Part shown: piece by piece, positions 16,445 through 21,710 of the stretch | Layout of the letters: each line of letters begins with the position of its first letter | How positions within the stretch are numbered: the stretch's first letter is position 1 | Origin: a bacterium | GTDB lineage: Bacteria > Planctomycetota > Planctomycetia > Pirellulales > Pirellulaceae | Direction of reading: 5' to 3' | Assembly (NCBI GenBank): GCA_024743355.1 | Contig: JANSWS010000002.1 | Span: 2,475-66,474, forward strand | Length of the DNA stretch: 64,000 nucleotides | Made by a program: the position numbers and the translations under genes | Notes under the pieces: generated by a model | Databases searched by the model: none | The model's input: only the letters and a program-made list of their open reading frames with translations | What the model was told of the DNA's origin: nothing

Positions 16445-17866
16445 TCAACGTCCCAGATTTCGGTTCATGTTCTTCTTGTAAGCCTCGACGCCTGGTTGGC
16501 CGTAGGGGTTGATACCCAGCAGTCGCCCCTCGACCACGGTTGCCAACATCAGCATCTGGAAGAACTGCCCCATGAAGTATTCGTCTACACGCGGCATATA
16601 CAGGTTGGTGGTTGCACGCCCGTCATCCTTGAGAGCTTCGTTGGTGCCCGCGATAGCGGCCGACATCACGTCCGGCAGAGATTTGTCGGCAATGTCGTTC
16701 AATTGATCCGGATCCGACTCCCTGTGTCCAATTACTAAGGGATCAAAACGATAGTTTTCAACAATGACATTGTTGATGATTTTGTCGCGGCGGCCTTCTT
16801 GGTGCTGTTGGTGTCTGGAGTGAAGATCGCGGGTATTCACGGTGGTGAGAGGCATCGCGCCTTTTTCAAATTTGCCCAGGCTCTCAGCCAGCAGCTGGTC
16901 ATACCACATGCCGGCGGACTCCAGAGCCTTGCTCCAAACGCTCATCAGTCGGATGCAGGCGCCGCGTTTGGTTTCCATCAGGTGATTGATGGCCGTGTAT
17001 TGGAGAACGATGTTGTCCTGAGCTTTGCTCGTTCGAAAGTGTTCGTTCATGTCGGCAGCACCCTGCAGGAGCTTCATGACGTTGATTCCCATCAGAGCGG
17101 CTGGAACGAGTCCAACGGCGGACAGGACCGAGAATCGCCCGCCCACGCCATCTGGTACGGGAAAGATGTCTTGGCAGCCGAGTTGACTGGCGAAGTCAAA
17201 CAGTTTGCCGCTGGTGCCCGTTACTGGAATGACACGCTGACGCACAAGATCTGCGTTGCCGCCACAGGTCTTCTCTAGTGCATGCAGAAACTGTCGAAAG
17301 GCAGTCGCTGTCTCCAGCGTGCCGCCGCTTTTGCTGATGACCACCAAGCCCCAACTGTCTTCAACACTCCCCTGCCCTTCCGGTTTATGGGCGCCCAGTA
17401 GATGCAGCAGTCCCTGAGACGCATCGTTGTCCACGTTGTTGCCTTCGAAGTAGATTCTCGGTCTACTCCCCCGTTCACCGCGCGAAAGCTCGTTGAAGTA
17501 GGGTTGGCAGCAGGCATCCATCAACGCCCGGGCTCCCATGTAGGAGCCGCCGATGCCCAGCACTACCACGCGGTCGACTTCGGACATGAGTTGCTTGGTA
17601 ACGGCCAAGATCCTTGCCAGCTCGCTGCCCTGACGATCCGCTTCGTATTCCGCCAGCAGCCGTTCGGGCAGCAGGTAGAATCCGGCGTCCAGCGGCTGCT
17701 TGGAATCCGGAGTTGCGATTTCGCCATTCAACATCTTGACGTCGATATCACAAATCTCGTCCCGCAGCTTCTCCAGCTGCGGTCCCAAGCTGGCCACATC
17801 GCTCGGCTCAAGTCCCGTACCGGTCAGATAGGATGCGGACGGGTCAAAGCGGAGCAAGTCGGTCAT
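16445..17866 (-). CDS. pgi: Glucose-6-phosphate isomerase
   Basis: LGIGGSYMGA, VISKSGGTLET, VGGRFSVLS and NPYGQPGVEAYK motifs. Confidence 0.95.
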   Translation of the reverse strand: MTDLLRFDPSASYLTGTGLEPSDVASLGPQLEKLRDEICDIDVKMLNGEIATPDSKQPLDAGFYLLPERLLAEYEADRQGSELARILAVTKQLMSEVDRVVVLGIGGSYMGARALMDACCQPYFNELSRGERGSRPRIYFEGNNVDNDASQGLLHLLGAHKPEGQGSVEDSWGLVVISKSGGTLETATAFRQFLHALEKTCGGNADLVRQRVIPVTGTSGKLFDFASQLGCQDIFPVPDGVGGRFSVLSAVGLVPAALMGINVMKLLQGAADMNEHFRTSKAQDNIVLQYTAINHLMETKRGACIRLMSVWSKALESAGMWYDQLLAESLGKFEKGAMPLTTVNTRDLHSRHQQHQEGRRDKIINNVIVENYRFDPLVIGHRESDPDQLNDIADKSLPDVMSAAIAGTNEALKDDGRATTNLYMPRVDEYFMGQFFQMLMLATVVEGRLLGINPYGQPGVEAYKKNMNRNLGR

Positions 17867-18129
17867 GGAACTAGCCTTTCATGGGTTTTAGTTTTTCAAT
17901 GCCATGGCAAGCGCGCCTGGCAGCGCGAGCTTGCCAGTGGCTCTCGGAGTGAGCGAACTGGCATCTCCGCAGAGCCAGCTTCCCGGCACGTGTGGGATGT
18001 CGATTTCCGCAAAGGAGATGCGTGGAATCTAACGCATGTACGCGATTGTATAAACTCCCTGAAATTCTTTCAGGTAACGAATTCGTTCTTGGGATGCATG
18101 TATCGCCGCTAAGTGGGCGAACAAGTTTC

Positions 18130-18157
18130 TTGACAAGCGGATCTCGGCTGCTATTCT
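18130..18157 (+). promoter_or_regulatory. Putative sigma70 promoter for the cobalamin riboswitch leader
   Basis: TTGACA-N16-TATTCT immediately upstream of the riboswitch. Confidence 0.6.
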
Positions 18158-18167
18158 CTGGTCACGC

Positions 18168-18508
18168 TTGTGGTGGCGGGAAATGCAGCTCATTTCTCGC
18201 GAACAGGGAACCCGGTGAGAATCCGGGACGGACCGGCCGCTGTAAGCTACCGCCTGCACTCTAGTGGCAGTTGCTCATGGGCTTTCCAAGTCACATGGGC
18301 TTTCCAAGTCACATGGGCTTTCCAAGTCACATGGGCTTGCCCTTCACACAGTGCAGTGCCAGACAATCTGCTTCTTGGGACGGCCATTGTTCCCGTATAA
18401 GTTTTCGTCAGGGCTCGAAGCGGCGAAGACGATCGCTGGTCTAAGAAAAACCGGCGGAGGGAATGAGAAGGCAACGGGTTGTCGATGTAGCGAGTCAGAA
18501 GACCTACC
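18168..18508 (+). ncRNA. Cobalamin (AdoCbl-class) riboswitch, extended
   Basis: P2 hairpin GCGGGAAATG/CATTTCTCGC. Core AACAGGGAA-CCCGGTGAGAATCCGGG-ACGGACCGGCCGCTGTAA (18202-18245). B12-box elements GCCATTG (18383) and GAGAAGGC (18465). 3' element GAGTCAGAAGACCTACC (18492-18508). Confidence 0.92.
18276..18338 (+). repeat. 18-bp tandem repeat (3.5 copies) inside the riboswitch
   Basis: CATGGGCTTTCCAAGTCA three times exactly, plus CATGGGCTT. Confidence 0.95.
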
Positions 18509-18587
18509 ACAGGCGAGGTCGAAGCTTTCTCCGGTGGATAGGAAGCCGATCGCGTTCCAGTCTCGCTGTCATACCTGAGGCAATTTT

Positions 18588-19403
18588 ATGCGCCCTTCCT
18601 TGCCAGGCTGCGCCCGCTTGCGGTTGCGCCCAGCGTTTACGCTGGTCGAACTCCTGGTGGTCATTGCCATTATCGGGATTTTGGTATCGCTCCTGCTGCC
18701 TGCTGTACAGGCGGTCCGCGAGGCAGCTCGCAAGGCGAGTTGCCAGAACAATCTGAAGCAGATTGGCATCGCGCTGCACAACTTTCATGATGCCCATCAT
18801 CGGTTGCCGATCGGCTGCGTGGAATGGCGCGGGCCAGGCAAACCCAATACGCACCGTCAGTTCGCTTGGTCCGCTTATCTCTTGCCCTATCTCGAGCAGC
18901 AAAATCTGTTCAACGCAATTGATTTTTCTTTGCCTTTCGATGCACCAGAGAATGCGCAGCCGGCCGCGGTGCGGGTCAGCGTTTTCGAGTGTCCAACTGC
19001 TGACAAACGCGAGCTGATTCGCGGGCAAACCGATTATGGTGGTCTGTTCGGTGAGCGGATGGTCACTCGGCAGGCCGATGATGGTGTTTTTCTTTACGGC
19101 CAGGAAATTGCATTCGAGGATATCCGCGATGGTTTATCCCAAACCATTGCGGTCGCCGAAGATGTGGGTGGACCCGACAGTGAATGGATCAACGGCAAGA
19201 ATGTGTTTGTGCAATCAGGCGGGATCAATGATCCCAATGCATGGATCGGCGATAACGAAATTCGCAGCCGACATCCATCCGGTGCGATGGTTCTGTTCGT
19301 CGACGGCCACGTCGCGTTCCTGGGGGACAGCGTCGACCCTAAAGTTCTGGGTGGACTAATTACCAGAGATGGCCGCGAAGTGGTTCCTGAAAACGCTTAT
19401 TAG
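18588..19403 (+). CDS. DUF1559 prepilin-type N-terminal methylation / H-X9-DG protein
   Basis: AFTLVELLVVIAIIGILVSLLLPAVQAVREAARKASCQNNLKQIG N-terminus and C-terminal RSRHPSGAMVLFVDGHV. Confidence 0.95.
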   Translation: MRPSLPGCARLRLRPAFTLVELLVVIAIIGILVSLLLPAVQAVREAARKASCQNNLKQIGIALHNFHDAHHRLPIGCVEWRGPGKPNTHRQFAWSAYLLPYLEQQNLFNAIDFSLPFDAPENAQPAAVRVSVFECPTADKRELIRGQTDYGGLFGERMVTRQADDGVFLYGQEIAFEDIRDGLSQTIAVAEDVGGPDSEWINGKNVFVQSGGINDPNAWIGDNEIRSRHPSGAMVLFVDGHVAFLGDSVDPKVLGGLITRDGREVVPENAY

Positions 19404-19421
19404 TCTTATTGATTCTTATTG

Positions 19422-20339
19422 ATGGCGGTTACAGCGATGAAATCAAAATCTGCAACTTCACTCGTGGCTGTTTGTCTCGCGTGGTTGATGCCTGTCTGCT
19501 TATCGGGCCCTGGCGGATCGGTCTGGTGGGTGAACTCCGCCACAGCAGCCATTGTGACTTTCGAAGATGTTGGCGACGGTTTGCCCTTCGACGGCTTTTA
19601 CAATGGTGGCCCCAGCAATAACAGCGATGGCTGGTCCAGCGGTGGGGTGCAATTTGAGAATACGTTCACCGATTTTGGCGGTGGCTTCACCGGCTGGGAG
19701 GGATGGGCTTACTCCACGGTCCGCGATATAGTGACCGCCGGATTCGCCAATCAGTACGCCGCCTACTCGGCCAGCGGTACCGATGCCGGCTTCGGATCCG
19801 GGAATTCTCGTACTTATGCGCTGGCTTTTCCCGGTTCCCAGCGGAATAACAACGGAAGTGTTCTGAGTTTTGCCACCACGGTCGCGGTAGAATCCATCGA
19901 TGTGACCAACACCACCTATGCCCTGCTGGGATTGCGTGATGGAAACGACGGAGGGGCGGGTTTCGTGGCCCAATTTCAGGACGGTGATTTCTTTCGGCTC
20001 TCCATCACCGGCTTCGATGGCGCGGCGGGCAGTGGCAACCCGACGGGAAGCGTTGACGTGGAGCTGGCCAACTATGGCGGAGCTGGTGCCGACGACAATC
20101 AGATCATTGACGACTGGGTCAACGTGGATTTGAGCGGTTTGGGGCAGGTACGTTCACTGCGTTTCTCACTCGATTCGAACGTCGTCGACACCTTTGACGG
20201 GATTGCATTTCTGAATACACCATCGTACGTGGCGATCGACAATTTGAGCTTCAGCATTGTGCCTGAACCGTCCGGCTTAGGGCTGGCCATGGTCGGATGG
20301 GCAATGTTTTGCAGGCGGCGTAGCAAACGGGCAGCCTAG
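19422..20339 (+). CDS. DUF4465-like secreted protein with PEP-CTERM sorting signal
   Basis: Signal-like N-terminus. WEGWAYS...NQYAAY, VTNTTYA...DG...GDFFRLSITG and TPSYVAIDN motifs recalled as DUF4465. C-terminal VPEPSGLGLAMVGWAMFCRRRSKR. Confidence 0.8.
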   Translation: MAVTAMKSKSATSLVAVCLAWLMPVCLSGPGGSVWWVNSATAAIVTFEDVGDGLPFDGFYNGGPSNNSDGWSSGGVQFENTFTDFGGGFTGWEGWAYSTVRDIVTAGFANQYAAYSASGTDAGFGSGNSRTYALAFPGSQRNNNGSVLSFATTVAVESIDVTNTTYALLGLRDGNDGGAGFVAQFQDGDFFRLSITGFDGAAGSGNPTGSVDVELANYGGAGADDNQIIDDWVNVDLSGLGQVRSLRFSLDSNVVDTFDGIAFLNTPSYVAIDNLSFSIVPEPSGLGLAMVGWAMFCRRRSKRAA

Positions 20340-20504
20340 TCCGGATTTCTCACGTAGGCCGTCAACAAGGTCGCTAGACGGCTGCAGACCAGGAGTTTCG
20401 AAGGCTAGAGACAAGCCGCCCTGGTTCATGTGCGCAGAGTTGTCATAATCTGCCGTCATCGAAACGAATCCGTCAAACTGCCTCAGTCTGGAGCACAAGC
20501 CATC

Positions 20505-21710
20505 ATGGATATGCACGAGCTGACCCGTGAATTGCAAATTAAGAACAAGACCAAGATCGTCATGCTGGTAGGCGATGGTCTGGGCGGCTTACCGATGACC
20601 CCTGATGGGAAGACGGAACTGGAGGCGGCCGAGACACCCAATATGGACGCCTTGGCGGCCAAGGGCGTCCAGGGACTGAGCATTCCGGTCAAGCCGGGAA
20701 TCGCTCCCGGTAGCGGACCCGGACATCTGGGGCTGTTCGGCTACGATCCGCTGAAATACCAAATTGGACGTGGAGCGCTCGAGGCAACCGGTATTGGTTT
20801 CGAGATGCAGCCCGGCGATGTGGCCATACGCTGTAACTTCTGTACGCTCGACGCCGATGGGAACATTGCGGACCGTCGGGCGGGCCGGATTCCCACGGAG
20901 GAAAGTGCCCCGCTGGCAATTTCACTGCGTCAAATACAGATACCTGGCATCGAAGTCTTCGTGGAGCCCGTCAAGGAGCACCGTTTTGTGGTGGTCTTCC
21001 GCGGACCGGGATTAGGCGGAAACGTACGGGACACCGATCCCCAGGCGACGGGAGTGCCGCCGCTGGAGCCCGAAGCTGTCGATGAAGGCAGCCGCAAGAC
21101 CGCAGACGTGGCTCGGCAATTCCTGATACAAGCCCGAGAGATCCTCAAGGACGAGACCAAGGCCAACTTCCATACCATGCGAGGCTTCGCGGCTCGGCCA
21201 GATCTTCCTTCCTACGAAGAGGTTTATGGGCTCAAGGCCGCAGCCATCGCCGTATACCCGATGTACAAAGGCCTGGCACGATTGGTGGGCATGGACATCG
21301 TGGGCGAAGCCACGTCGCTCGATGAACAGATGCAAGTGCTCAAGGAGAATTGGGAAAGCTACGATTTCTTCTTCATTCACTTCAAGTACACCGACAGCAC
21401 CGGTGAAGATGGGAACTACGCCGAAAAGGTGAAACGCAGGGTGCAATTGGATGCCTGCATTCCGGCCATCACGGAACTCGGTCCCGATGTGTTGATTGTG
21501 ACTGGAGATCATTCCACGCCGGCTTACCTGAAGAGTCACAGTTGGCATCCGGTGCCCACGCTGCTGGTTTCGGATTGCTGCCGTCCCGATCCCCATACTT
21601 CGTTCGGAGAGTCGCAGGCGATCACCGGCGGTTTGGGACAGTTTGAAGCTCAGTACTTGATGCTGCTAGCCCTGTCCAACGCGGGCCGCATGGGTAAGTA
21701 CGGCGCCTAA
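20505..21710 (+). CDS. apgM: 2,3-BPG-independent phosphoglycerate mutase (ApgM type)
   Basis: DGLGG, TELEAAETPNMD, PGSGPGHLGLFGYDP and TGDHSTP motifs. Start refined from 20430. Confidence 0.92.
   Translation: MDMHELTRELQIKNKTKIVMLVGDGLGGLPMTPDGKTELEAAETPNMDALAAKGVQGLSIPVKPGIAPGSGPGHLGLFGYDPLKYQIGRGALEATGIGFEMQPGDVAIRCNFCTLDADGNIADRRAGRIPTEESAPLAISLRQIQIPGIEVFVEPVKEHRFVVVFRGPGLGGNVRDTDPQATGVPPLEPEAVDEGSRKTADVARQFLIQAREILKDETKANFHTMRGFAARPDLPSYEEVYGLKAAAIAVYPMYKGLARLVGMDIVGEATSLDEQMQVLKENWESYDFFFIHFKYTDSTGEDGNYAEKVKRRVQLDACIPAITELGPDVLIVTGDHSTPAYLKSHSWHPVPTLLVSDCCRPDPHTSFGESQAITGGLGQFEAQYLMLLALSNAGRMGKYGA

What the first reader, a model, noticed from the sequence alone, without database searches (positions are those of the whole stretch)
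18130..20339. B12-riboswitch-controlled two-gene module: DUF1559 pseudopilin plus DUF4465-like PEP-CTERM surface protein (candidate corrinoid-capture system)
Seen: a sigma70-like promoter, a full cobalamin riboswitch, then two closely spaced co-oriented genes (18-bp gap) before unrelated apgM. Established: cobalamin riboswitches usually repress B12 uptake or synthesis genes, or B12-independent isozymes. DUF1559 genes are greatly expanded in planctomycetes and have no assigned function. PEP-CTERM proteins are sorted to the surface by exosortase. Inference: under B12 limitation the cell makes a pilin-like subunit and a surface-anchored corrinoid-binding protein that together scavenge B12. No BtuB or BtuFCD gene is in the unit. 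If so, this gives a ligand-specific role to a DUF1559 member and suggests that DUF1559/PEP-CTERM pairs act as nutrient-specific capture modules.
Basis: partly seen in the sequence, partly recalled or inferred. Interest (0 to 1): 0.82.

Follow-up and report, generated by a model that had tools for sequence, protein, structure and literature searches.

The report
B12-switched pilin plus B12-binder operon
A vitamin-B12-sensing RNA switch, the only one found in this planctomycete genome, controls a known type of B12-binding surface protein and a dedicated pilin-like protein from a very large family of unknown function, in a bacterium that needs B12 but shows none of the usual B12 import genes.

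Summary
Window 18154-18525 (+) is a cobalamin riboswitch (Rfam 62.8 bits; 84.6 bits with a model built without it). It is followed by a DUF1559 / H-X9-DG prepilin-like gene (18588-19403) and a DUF4465 gene with a PEP-CTERM tail (19419/19437-20339).

DUF4465 is the BtuJ family. Eight members, one from a planctomycete, bind B12 (PMC13398666). Both conserved B12-contacting tyrosine motifs are present here.

The host has MetH but no detected MetE, CbiC, CbiB, CobS, TonB-dependent receptor, BtuF or BtuC. Only one cobalamin riboswitch was found in the genome.

Among 80 species-level DUF4465 loci, 71 have a co-oriented prepilin-type gene and 67 have the riboswitch. The 58 DUF4465-adjacent DUF1559 proteins group apart from the 40 other paralogs tested. 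A confident model (pLDDT 95) has a type IV pilin fold, not a solute-binding-protein fold.

The reading as a B12-repressed capture module is well supported. What the pilin does is inferred. 14 of 20 module-bearing genomes do have TonB-dependent receptors elsewhere.

I found no paper on the DUF1559-B12 link. This scan has reported the same module in at least 21 other genomes.

The parts
18130..18157 (+). Sigma-70-like promoter match (TTGACA, 16 nt, TATTCT, TG-extended)
   Evidence: 10 of 12 matches. The TATTCTC block is also present in the Aureliella helgolandensis leader. Consensus match only; the transcription start is not determined.
18154..18525 (+). Cobalamin riboswitch aptamer (RF00174)
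   Evidence: 62.8 bits, E 3.6e-13, full model; 84.6 bits with model R1, which was built without the window. The core blocks AGGGAAC..GGTG..AATCC and the B12 box AGTCAGAAGACCTACC are invariant in the five leaders aligned.
18276..18338 (+). Perfect 18-nt tandem repeat (3.5 copies) inside the 142-nt insert in the variable peripheral region of the aptamer
   Evidence: The related leaders lack this insert. A related strain's contig has about 21 fewer letters here (record 13).
18577..18580 (+). Shine-Dalgarno-like GAGG, 7 nt before the ATG of gene 1
   Evidence: Read from the sequence. No terminator-like hairpin lies between the aptamer and the start codon. No significant expression-platform fold was found (z +1.37).
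18588..19403 (+). Gene 1: DUF1559 / H-X9-DG prepilin-like protein, 271 aa. Prepilin motif A16|F17-T-L-V-E21; H229-X9-D239-G240.
   Evidence: PF07596 180.6 bits, N_methyl, TIGR04294; model pLDDT 95.2; best structural matches are type IV pilins and pseudopilins; member of a DUF4465-linked lineage.
19396..19423 (+). 10-nt repeat (CTTATTGATT, 2.9 copies) spanning the stop codon of gene 1 and the spacer
   Evidence: Significance unknown.
19419..20339 (+). Gene 2: DUF4465 (BtuJ-family) B12-binding protein with an N-terminal signal-like hydrophobic segment and a PEP-CTERM tail. The likely start is the ATG at 19437.
   Evidence: PF14717 129.4 bits. (PDB 9HMU E 3.8e-14, plus 9QPM, 9FCT, 4JQR)..
19908..19919 (+). 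N164-T-T-Y167: the DE-loop helix tyrosine motif of DUF4465
   Evidence: Nearly invariant in 47 homologues. Aligns with VTNT.Y of 9HMU and 9QPM. PMC13398666 names this tyrosine as B12-binding.
20214..20228 (+). N266-T-P-S-Y270: the HI-loop NTPxY motif of DUF4465
   Evidence: P268 is invariant and Y270 nearly invariant. PMC13398666 reports a conserved NTPAY motif, with the tyrosine kept in 97% of homologues.
20259..20336 (+). PEP-CTERM-type tail: V-P-E-P, a hydrophobic stretch, then an Arg-rich end
   Evidence: P282, E283 and P284 are invariant. Pfam gives 13.3 bits, below the cut-off. NF038120 gives a partial match. The genome has three exosortase-family matches.

Best explanation
This is a B12-repressed vitamin-capture operon of a cobalamin-auxotrophic Pirellulaceae planctomycete.

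Proposed mechanism:
1. When cellular adenosylcobalamin is high, it binds the leader aptamer and shuts the unit off. Control is most likely at translation initiation or through Rho, because there is no intrinsic terminator.
2. When B12 is scarce, two exported proteins are made.
3. The first is a BtuJ-family (DUF4465) beta-jellyroll protein that binds B12 tightly. It is sorted and anchored at the cell surface by its PEP-CTERM tail and an exosortase.
4. The second is a dedicated member of the DUF1559 family with a type IV pilin fold. Prepilin peptidase would process it, and it would be presented on, or as part of, a type II secretion / type IV pilus-like fibre.
5. The two act in one pathway that brings B12 from outside to the inner membrane. 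In other phyla a TonB-dependent BtuB gene sits beside the binder. In many relatives the next step is encoded in the same operon, either an ECF-S-component-like DUF6580 protein or BtuFCD.

Shown here:
- the riboswitch;
- the family assignments;
- the conserved binding motifs;
- the conserved and lineage-specific pairing;
- the pilin fold;
- the auxotrophy markers;
- no detected classical Btu genes.

Inferred: the OFF logic, co-transcription, B12 binding by this particular protein, and the whole role of the pilin.

My odds:
- B12-regulated B12 acquisition unit: about 0.85.
- The pilin-like protein works in the same acquisition pathway: about 0.7.
- It directly carries or passes B12 across the outer membrane or periplasm: about 0.3.
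For: Riboswitch:
- Confirmed.
- It is the only one found in a 98.5% complete genome, and a loose two-block motif scan finds only this site.

Binder:
- DUF4465 assignment, with the NTPSY and NTTY motifs.
- Family-wide B12 binding, including a planctomycete member, is reported in PMC13398666.

Auxotrophy and missing classical route in the own genome:
- MetH present.
- MetE, CbiC, CbiB and CobS not found.
- TonB-dependent barrel and Plug not found.
- BtuF-type binding protein not found.
- The only FecCD hit is an ABC-3 metal permease.

Conserved pairing:
- All 6 other DUF4465 loci in 401 sampled Planctomycetota genomes have the riboswitch and a prepilin-type gene.
- Named genomes show the same order: Aureliella helgolandensis (also the same pgi...apgM flanks), Crateriforma conspicua and strain SH139.
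- Of 80 species-level loci, 51 have DUF1559 upstream, 3 have it downstream, 17 have a distant prepilin type downstream, and 67 have the riboswitch.
- In G239 the two genes are divergent and each has its own cobalamin riboswitch.

Lineage:
- The 58 adjacent DUF1559 proteins lie on one side of a branch against 40 other paralogs.
- The best hit of the window protein in G330 is the DUF4465-adjacent copy, 255 bits against 127 for the next.

Fold and machinery:
- Model pLDDT 95.2. Twenty of the top 21 VIA-align matches are pilins or pseudopilins.
- The genome has 6 secretin, 15 T2SSE-ATPase and 3 exosortase matches.

Locus-level swap: the Myxococcota and gammaproteobacterial DUF4465 loci carry a TonB-dependent receptor and no pilin.

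Downstream step: DUF6580 looks like an ECF S component. BtuFCD follows in L009, L046, L080 and L099.
Against: - No expression evidence. Metatranscriptome contigs cover the leader and both genes at low depth, but they begin upstream of the predicted promoter and do not bridge the two genes. DNA carry-over cannot be excluded.
- No expression platform could be defined.
- The complex prediction for the two proteins gave no answer, so contact between them is unsupported.
- 14 of 20 module-bearing genomes do have TonB-dependent receptors elsewhere. This includes all the Verrucomicrobiota tested. 'Pilin instead of BtuB' therefore holds at the locus, not for whole genomes.
- In G156 the divergent DUF1559 genes have no detectable riboswitch of their own.
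- The -1 residue of the prepilin motif is Ala here, not the usual Gly.
- Structural Z-scores to pilins are low (5.5 at most). About half of the 271-aa protein is family-specific elaboration with no solved counterpart.
- The deepest node of the linked clade has only moderate support: SH-aLRT 72, FastTree 87.
Confidence: 0.72

Rival explanations
1. The pilin-like protein is an export or display factor. As a pseudopilus subunit of a type II secretion-like machine, it helps push or position the DUF4465 protein on the cell surface. It never handles B12 and plays no part in inward transport.
For: Pseudopilins of type II secretion systems act in export (established knowledge). The protein has the pilin fold. 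The genome has many secretins and T2SSE ATPases. The two genes keep tight linkage in either order.
Against: The binder already carries its own sorting signal (PEP-CTERM), and exosortases are present. Substrate-specific pseudopilins encoded next to their cargo are not a known feature of type II secretion. In the Myxococcota and gammaproteobacterial loci the same PEP-CTERM binder has no pilin partner.
Confidence: 0.15
2. The DUF1559 protein is itself a second B12 binder. It would stay tethered in the inner membrane by its N-terminal helix and shuttle B12 across the enlarged planctomycete periplasm, a BtuF-like role, without being built into a fibre.
For: No BtuF-type protein was found in this genome. 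Pfam names the family SBP_bac_10. DUF1559 domains occur fused to BlaR1-type and Ser/Thr-kinase membrane sensors, as ligand-binding modules often are. The close ortholog group has invariant Trp and Cys residues beyond the family core: C77, W80 and W219.
Against: The confident model matches pilins and no periplasmic binding protein. In L009, L046, L080 and L099 the pilin-like gene coexists with a true BtuF in the same locus. There are no binding data.
Confidence: 0.15
3. The unit is B12-regulated but serves hoarding or competition rather than import. The surface binder would hold B12 as an extracellular reservoir or deny it to neighbours. The pilin would mediate attachment to B12-producing partners such as algae-associated bacteria.
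For: A bioRxiv preprint title and abstract describe BtuJ1 of Bacteroides as an extracellular vitamin reservoir (listing only; I did not read the paper). The best DNA match for the window is a phycosphere metagenome. Adhesion is a common pilin role (established knowledge).
Against: The host has MetH, no detected MetE and no detected corrin pathway genes, so it must import B12. This is its only B12-regulated unit. In relatives the operon continues into transporter genes.
Confidence: 0.07
4. The adjacency is chance. DUF1559 genes are so numerous in planctomycetes that one happens to lie next to the binder.
For: 46 to over 112 DUF1559 matches per genome.
Against: 71 of 80 loci have a co-oriented prepilin gene. 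The adjacent copies form their own lineage. In G239 the DUF1559 gene has its own riboswitch. The window protein belongs to a group of over 100 database clusters at 58-80% identity. All three named-genome members I looked up sit beside DUF4465, and five others lie on contigs of the same length as a DUF4465 hit.
Confidence: 0.01

Closest known systems
Bacteroides thetaiotaomicron btu loci with the accessory surface binders BtuJ1/BtuJ2 (DUF4465), BtuG and BtuH around BtuB
   Same: Cobalamin riboswitch control. A surface-exposed DUF4465 B12 binder with the same conserved tyrosine motifs. Role in scavenging scarce B12 (PMC13398666).
   Different: In Bacteroides the binders are lipoproteins that feed a TonB-dependent BtuB, with BtuFCD encoded in the same loci. 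Here the binder has a PEP-CTERM tail and no obvious lipobox, the partner is a pilin-like protein, and no BtuB, BtuF or BtuC was detected in the genome.
DUF4465 proteins D5EK51 (Coraliomargarita akajimensis, PDB 9HMU) and 'Pan' (Mucisphaera calidilacus), shown to bind B12
   Same: Same family and same PVC superphylum. 9HMU is the best PDB sequence match (E 3.8e-14).
   Different: PMC13398666 reports association with ABC, TonB-dependent and beta-propeller genes. A term search of it finds no mention of pilin, DUF1559, PEP-CTERM or Planctomycetes.
Type IV pilins and type II secretion pseudopilins (PilA4, EpsG/PulG, ComP, PilV)
   Same: N-terminal methylation motif with Glu at +5. A long alpha-1 helix packed on a beta-sheet. 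Twenty of the top 21 structural matches belong to this class.
   Different: The protein is about twice as large, with family-specific insertions and the C-terminal H-X9-DG motif. It falls below the equivalog cut-offs for GspG and others. It is encoded away from any pilus machinery, next to a vitamin binder and under a riboswitch. The competence pilins that take up DNA are the nearest functional analogy, and only as an analogy.
Planctomycete fibres as 'fishing rods' for polysaccharide uptake
   Same: The idea that pilus-like fibres serve nutrient capture in a phylum poor in TonB-dependent receptors.
   Different: Here a specific pilin-like lineage is tied to a specific ligand by a riboswitch.

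Membership tests
Cobalamin riboswitch (Rfam RF00174) | Covariance-model score above the curated gathering threshold over the full model | tested here: met
   62.8 bits against 31.5, model positions 1-189. 84.6 bits with an independent model.
Cobalamin riboswitch (Rfam RF00174) | Conserved core and B12 box | tested here: met
   AGGGAACCCGGTGAGAATCC and AGTCAGAAGACCTACC are present and invariant in the five leaders aligned.
Cobalamin riboswitch (Rfam RF00174) | Ligand binding and ligand-dependent repression | not testable with these tools
   Needs in-line probing or ITC and reporter assays. No expression platform could be defined.
DUF4465 / BtuJ B12-binding family (PF14717) | Pfam domain above the cut-off and sequence homology to solved members | tested here: met
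   129.4 bits against 25. 9HMU E 3.8e-14, 9QPM, 9FCT, 4JQR.
DUF4465 / BtuJ B12-binding family (PF14717) | HI-loop NTPAY motif with the B12-binding tyrosine, and the DE-helix tyrosine | tested here: met
   N266-T-P-S-Y270 and N164-T-T-Y167, conserved in 47 homologues.
DUF4465 / BtuJ B12-binding family (PF14717) | Export signal; most members are lipoproteins | tested here: inconclusive
   An N-terminal hydrophobic segment is present. By eye there is no canonical lipobox before the Cys residues. A PEP-CTERM tail is present instead. No signal-peptide predictor was available.
DUF4465 / BtuJ B12-binding family (PF14717) | Measured B12 binding | not testable with these tools
   Needs purified protein and UV-visible spectra or ITC.
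DUF1559 / H-X9-DG prepilin-like family (PF07596, TIGR04294) | DUF1559 domain, N-terminal methylation motif and C-terminal H-X9-DG | tested here: met
   180.6, 26.9 and 33.5 bits, all above their cut-offs. H229-X9-D239-G240 read from the sequence.
Type IV pilin / type II secretion pseudopilin | Pilin fold (alpha-1 helix plus beta-sheet) | tested here: met
   Model pLDDT 95.2. Twenty of the top 21 VIA-align matches are pilins or pseudopilins, though Z is only 2.6-5.5. Foldseek E-values are not significant.
Type IV pilin / type II secretion pseudopilin | Membership of a named pilin equivalog (GspG, PilA, ComGC and others) | tested here: not met
   The best is TIGR01710 at 34.4 bits against a cut-off of 88.85. 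Only the N-terminal helix matches.
Type IV pilin / type II secretion pseudopilin | Gly at -1 and Glu at +5 of the prepilin cleavage site; assembly into a fibre | tested here: inconclusive
   Glu21 (+5) is present. Position -1 is Ala here, while the ortholog consensus is Gly. Cleavage and assembly cannot be tested here.
PEP-CTERM / exosortase sorting | C-terminal P-E-P, a transmembrane stretch and a basic tail, with an exosortase in the genome | tested here: met
   P282-E283-P284 are invariant. There are three PF09721 matches in the genome. The Pfam PEP-CTERM score itself is below the cut-off: 13.3 against 20.7.
Classical BtuB-BtuFCD cobalamin import | TonB-dependent receptor, BtuF-type binding protein and FecCD-type permease in the locus or genome | tested here: not met
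   PF00593, PF07715 and PF01497 gave no match. The single PF01032 match is an ABC-3 metal permease. The genome is 98.5% complete, in 823 contigs.

The most novel reading that the evidence does not exclude
A dedicated DUF1559 pilin is the working part of a TonB-independent route for vitamin B12 across the planctomycete outer membrane. Carried on a type II secretion / type IV pilus-like fibre, it would take B12 from the surface DUF4465 binder and draw it in through a secretin. It would then hand the vitamin to an ECF-S-like DUF6580 protein or to BtuFCD. This would be the first defined function for a family with over 200,000 sequence clusters, and a new class of nutrient-uptake pilus.
Probability: 0.22. 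Interest if true: 0.85.

Novelty: new variant of a known kind. Interest (0 to 1): 0.62.

Why it matters
DUF1559 / H-X9-DG proteins are among the largest uncharacterised families in Planctomycetota and Verrucomicrobiota. A search of 50%-identity cluster representatives gave 235,149 matches at E up to 0.001, and single genomes hold 46 to over 112 matches. A riboswitch ties one lineage of the family to one ligand, which turns an open question into simple experiments: B12-dependent expression, binding, and uptake in mutants.

The finding also points to how planctomycetes that lack TonB-dependent receptors and BtuFCD take up a 1.3-kDa vitamin they cannot make. That matters for B12 exchange in phycosphere and sediment communities.

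The binder and the riboswitch themselves are ordinary members of known families.

Tried and rejected
- **Complex prediction.** DUF4465 residues 45-280 with DUF1559 residues 40-271 gave no answer, score 0.00. This is not evidence either way.
- **First structure model.** The model from 47 close orthologs was poor (pLDDT 62.5) and its fold search was uninformative. It was replaced by a model from 93 more diverse sequences.
- **Foldseek against the PDB.** With the good model it gave no significant match. Only the exhaustive VIA-align search showed the consistent pilin series.
- **Solute-binding-protein fold.** The Pfam name SBP_bac_10 suggests one, but no such match appeared.
- **Metatranscriptome and metagenome contigs laid on 17800-20700**. 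There were fragments only. None bridged the two genes, and pieces began upstream of the promoter-like site. This says nothing about transcription or co-transcription.
- **Expression platform.** Folding 18480-18610 gave nothing better than shuffled sequence, and there is no terminator-like hairpin before the start codon.
- **Second riboswitch for the divergent DUF1559 genes of G156.** None was found at E up to 1.
- **Reciprocal best hits to more distant genomes.** In G239 and G156 the adjacent DUF1559 is not the top hit of the window protein. The tree still places these copies in the linked clade.
- **TPP riboswitch in the own genome,** as a test of the generalisation to other vitamins. None was found.
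- **'Module-bearing genomes lack TonB-dependent receptors.'** Rejected as a general rule, because 14 of 20 have them.
- **Own-genome FecCD hit as a BtuC candidate.** Rejected. It is an ABC-3 metal permease fused to an iron-dependent repressor domain.
- **Locus search with the 47-sequence DUF4465 alignment.** It failed for lack of a conserved stretch and was repeated with a 14-sequence alignment.
- **Subfamily-specific residues of the 58-member clade.** G151, N205, Q209, A233, L254 and T259 are too few and too plain to suggest a site.
- **Literature.** Four papers mention DUF1559. I did not open them, and none has it in its title or abstract. None mentions DUF6580. A combined search for planctomycetes, cobalamin, riboswitch and pilin found nothing relevant.


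Full report
**1. What is in the sequence**

The window carries a full-length cobalamin riboswitch at 18154-18525 on the + strand.
- Rfam RF00174 scores it 62.8 bits against a gathering score of 31.5, E 3.6e-13.
- I built a covariance model from eight planctomycete aptamers that did not include the window. It scores the same stretch 84.6 bits.
- The two most conserved blocks, AGGGAAC..GGTG..AATCC and the B12 box AGTCAGAAGACCTACC, are intact and align with the leaders of related genomes.
- The aptamer is unusually long because of a 142-nt insert in its variable peripheral region. The insert includes a perfect 18-nt x 3.5 tandem repeat at 18276-18338. A related strain's contig has about 21 fewer letters there.

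A sigma-70-like match lies at 18130-18157: TTGACA, 16 nt, TATTCT, 10 of 12 matches, TG-extended. It is only a consensus match.

No terminator-like hairpin lies between the aptamer and the first start codon. No significant alternative fold was found either. Control of translation or Rho-dependent termination is therefore more likely than intrinsic attenuation. This is inference.

**2. The two genes**

Gene 1 (18588-19403, 271 aa):
- It matches DUF1559 (PF07596, 180.6 bits), the prepilin N-terminal methylation motif and the H-X9-DG C-terminal motif.
- A first AlphaFold model from close orthologs was poor. A second from 93 more diverse sequences is confident, with pLDDT 95.2 and pTM 0.88.
- An exhaustive structural comparison with 48,161 PDB chains put type IV pilins or pseudopilins in 20 of the top 21 places: PilA4, ComP, EpsG, PilV, PulG, PilE and others. 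The Z-scores are low, 2.6-5.5. No periplasmic binding protein appeared, despite the Pfam short name SBP_bac_10.
- The protein is therefore a pilin-fold protein about twice the usual size.
- The residue before the predicted cleavage site is Ala rather than Gly. Glu at +5 is present.

Gene 2 (19419-20339; the likely true start is the ATG at 19437):
- It is a clear DUF4465 protein: 129.4 bits, and PDB 9HMU at E 3.8e-14.
- A 2026 paper shows that eight divergent DUF4465 proteins bind B12, including one from the planctomycete Mucisphaera calidilacus. It names two conserved B12-contacting tyrosines (PMC13398666). Both motifs are present here, N164-T-T-Y167 and N266-T-P-S-Y270, and are conserved in 47 homologues.
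- The C-terminus is a PEP-CTERM-type tail. The P-E-P is invariant, although the Pfam score is below the cut-off.
- The genome has three exosortase-family matches.

**3. Genome context**

The genome is 8.3 Mb, 98.5% complete, in 823 contigs.

Found:
- one cobalamin riboswitch and one DUF4465 gene, both in this unit. A loose motif scan of the whole genome also finds only this site;
- MetH;
- one DUF6580 gene on another contig. This family looks like an ECF-transporter S component by predicted structure;
- six secretin and fifteen T2SSE-ATPase matches.

Not found:
- MetE, CbiC, CbiB and CobS;
- TonB-dependent barrel and Plug domain;
- BtuF-type binding protein;
- a FecCD-type B12 permease. The one FecCD hit is an ABC-3 metal permease.

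On these markers the organism needs complete cobalamin from outside and lacks the classical import route. This operon is its only recognisable B12-regulated unit.

**4. Is the pairing real?**

Sample of 401 Planctomycetota genomes:
- Six others carry DUF4465.
- All six loci have the riboswitch, and all have a prepilin-type gene beside the binder.
- In G239 the two genes are divergent and each has its own cobalamin riboswitch. This shows B12 control of the DUF1559 gene independently of co-transcription.

Relatives of the window protein:
- The window's DUF1559 protein belongs to a group of more than 100 database clusters at 58-80% identity.
- I looked up members of this group in three named genomes (a fourth look-up found no record): Aureliella helgolandensis (also flanked by pgi and apgM as here), Crateriforma conspicua and strain SH139. 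In each, the order is riboswitch, DUF1559, DUF4465.
- The last two continue into DUF1289 and DUF6580.

Scan of one genome per species, which returned 80 DUF4465 loci:

| Feature of the locus | Loci (of 80) |
|---|---|
| Riboswitch on the same strand upstream | 67 |
| DUF1559 gene immediately upstream | 51 |
| DUF1559 gene downstream | 3 |
| More distant prepilin-type gene downstream (Phycisphaerae and Verrucomicrobiota, including Akkermansia, Luteolibacter and Haloferula) | 17 |
| No prepilin-type gene | 9 |

- Of the 9 loci without one, three or four are cut by contig ends. One is a gammaproteobacterium with a TonB-dependent receptor nearby.
- A Myxococcota locus likewise has the binder next to a TonB-dependent receptor and no pilin.

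Phylogeny:
- In trees of 98 DUF1559 proteins, the 58 copies adjacent to DUF4465 fall on one side of a branch. On the other side are 40 paralogs: 37 from the window's own genome, two non-adjacent copies in L061, and the L092 copy 1.4 kb downstream of the binder.
- Support for that branch is moderate: FastTree 87, IQ-TREE SH-aLRT 72.
- The window's protein sits in a 27-member all-linked clade at 99.

Chance adjacency is excluded.

**5. What remains open**

Nothing here shows what the pilin-like protein does.
- The complex prediction gave no answer.
- The RNA data are uninformative.
- The attractive idea that the pilin replaces BtuB holds at the level of the locus, and for this genome and six others with no TonB-dependent receptor. 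Fourteen of twenty module-bearing genomes do have such receptors elsewhere.
- DUF1559 domains also occur fused to BlaR1-type and Ser/Thr-kinase membrane sensors. That hints at a ligand- or partner-binding module, but it is only a hint.

**6. Comparison and novelty**

The riboswitch and the binder are ordinary members of known families. The system works like the riboswitch-controlled Btu accessory relay of Bacteroides. It differs in four ways:
- the anchor is PEP-CTERM, not a lipid;
- the partner is a pilin-like protein;
- no BtuB lies in the locus;
- no classical pathway gene was detected in this genome.

I found no paper that links DUF1559 to B12.

Earlier agents of this scan reported the same module in at least 21 other genomes, and a later check priced the bold reading at 25 in 100. 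My own tests agree with those notes and add four points:
- the lineage test;
- the confident pilin-fold model;
- the complete negative inventory of classical Btu genes in this genome;
- the caveat about TonB-dependent receptors elsewhere.

**Verdict:** a new variant of a known kind of system, moderately to highly interesting, with the mechanism of the pilin unresolved.

Noticed in passing
window 18276-18338: A perfect 18-nt tandem repeat (3.5 copies) sits inside a 142-nt insert in the variable region of the riboswitch. Related leaders lack the insert, and a related strain's contig has about 21 fewer letters here. Repeat number may therefore vary between strains. Any effect on switching is unknown.
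   Followed up: partly
window 19396-19423: A 10-nt repeat (CTTATTGATT, 2.9 copies) spans the stop codon of the DUF1559 gene and the spacer before the DUF4465 start.
   Followed up: no
L017 7866-8784; L018 7918-8828; L027, L028; own genome G000:C408:2684-3262: In Crateriforma conspicua, strain SH139 and others, the operon continues with a small Cys-rich DUF1289 protein and a DUF6580 membrane protein. The predicted structure of DUF6580 resembles ECF-transporter S components (TM about 0.7), which makes it a candidate inner-membrane B12 carrier. In the window's genome the single DUF6580 gene lies on another contig, without a riboswitch.
   Followed up: partly
L009 7700-8827 (-); L013 7493-8530 (+); L010 7567-8472 (+); L097 5077-5952 (+); L046 1154-2386 (+): A third conserved partner has no Pfam family (one member has a dockerin tail). 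It accompanies DUF4465 in Phycisphaerae, Verrucomicrobiota, some Planctomycetia and a gammaproteobacterium. In L063 and L082 it shares one open frame with DUF4465.
   Followed up: partly
L011 10596-10721 (-) and 10926-11130 (+): Two cobalamin riboswitches lie back to back. One serves a divergent DUF1559 gene and the other the DUF4465 gene.
   Followed up: yes
P0329, P0298, P0252, P0268: DUF1559 domains without the pilin helix occur as three or four matched stretches per protein. In some proteins they are fused to a BlaR1-type M56 sensor or to a Ser/Thr kinase with a SecDF P1-head domain.
   Followed up: no
own genome G000:C254 (L015 1036-2694): An ABC-3 metal permease is fused to an iron-dependent repressor (DtxR-type) C-terminal domain. 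It lies next to an ABC ATPase and a second ABC-3 permease.
   Followed up: no
window 16445-17866 (-) and 20430-21710 (+): The module sits between pgi and apgM, two glycolytic genes. Aureliella helgolandensis has the same arrangement. In other genomes the flanks differ, so the module moves as a unit.
   Followed up: partly
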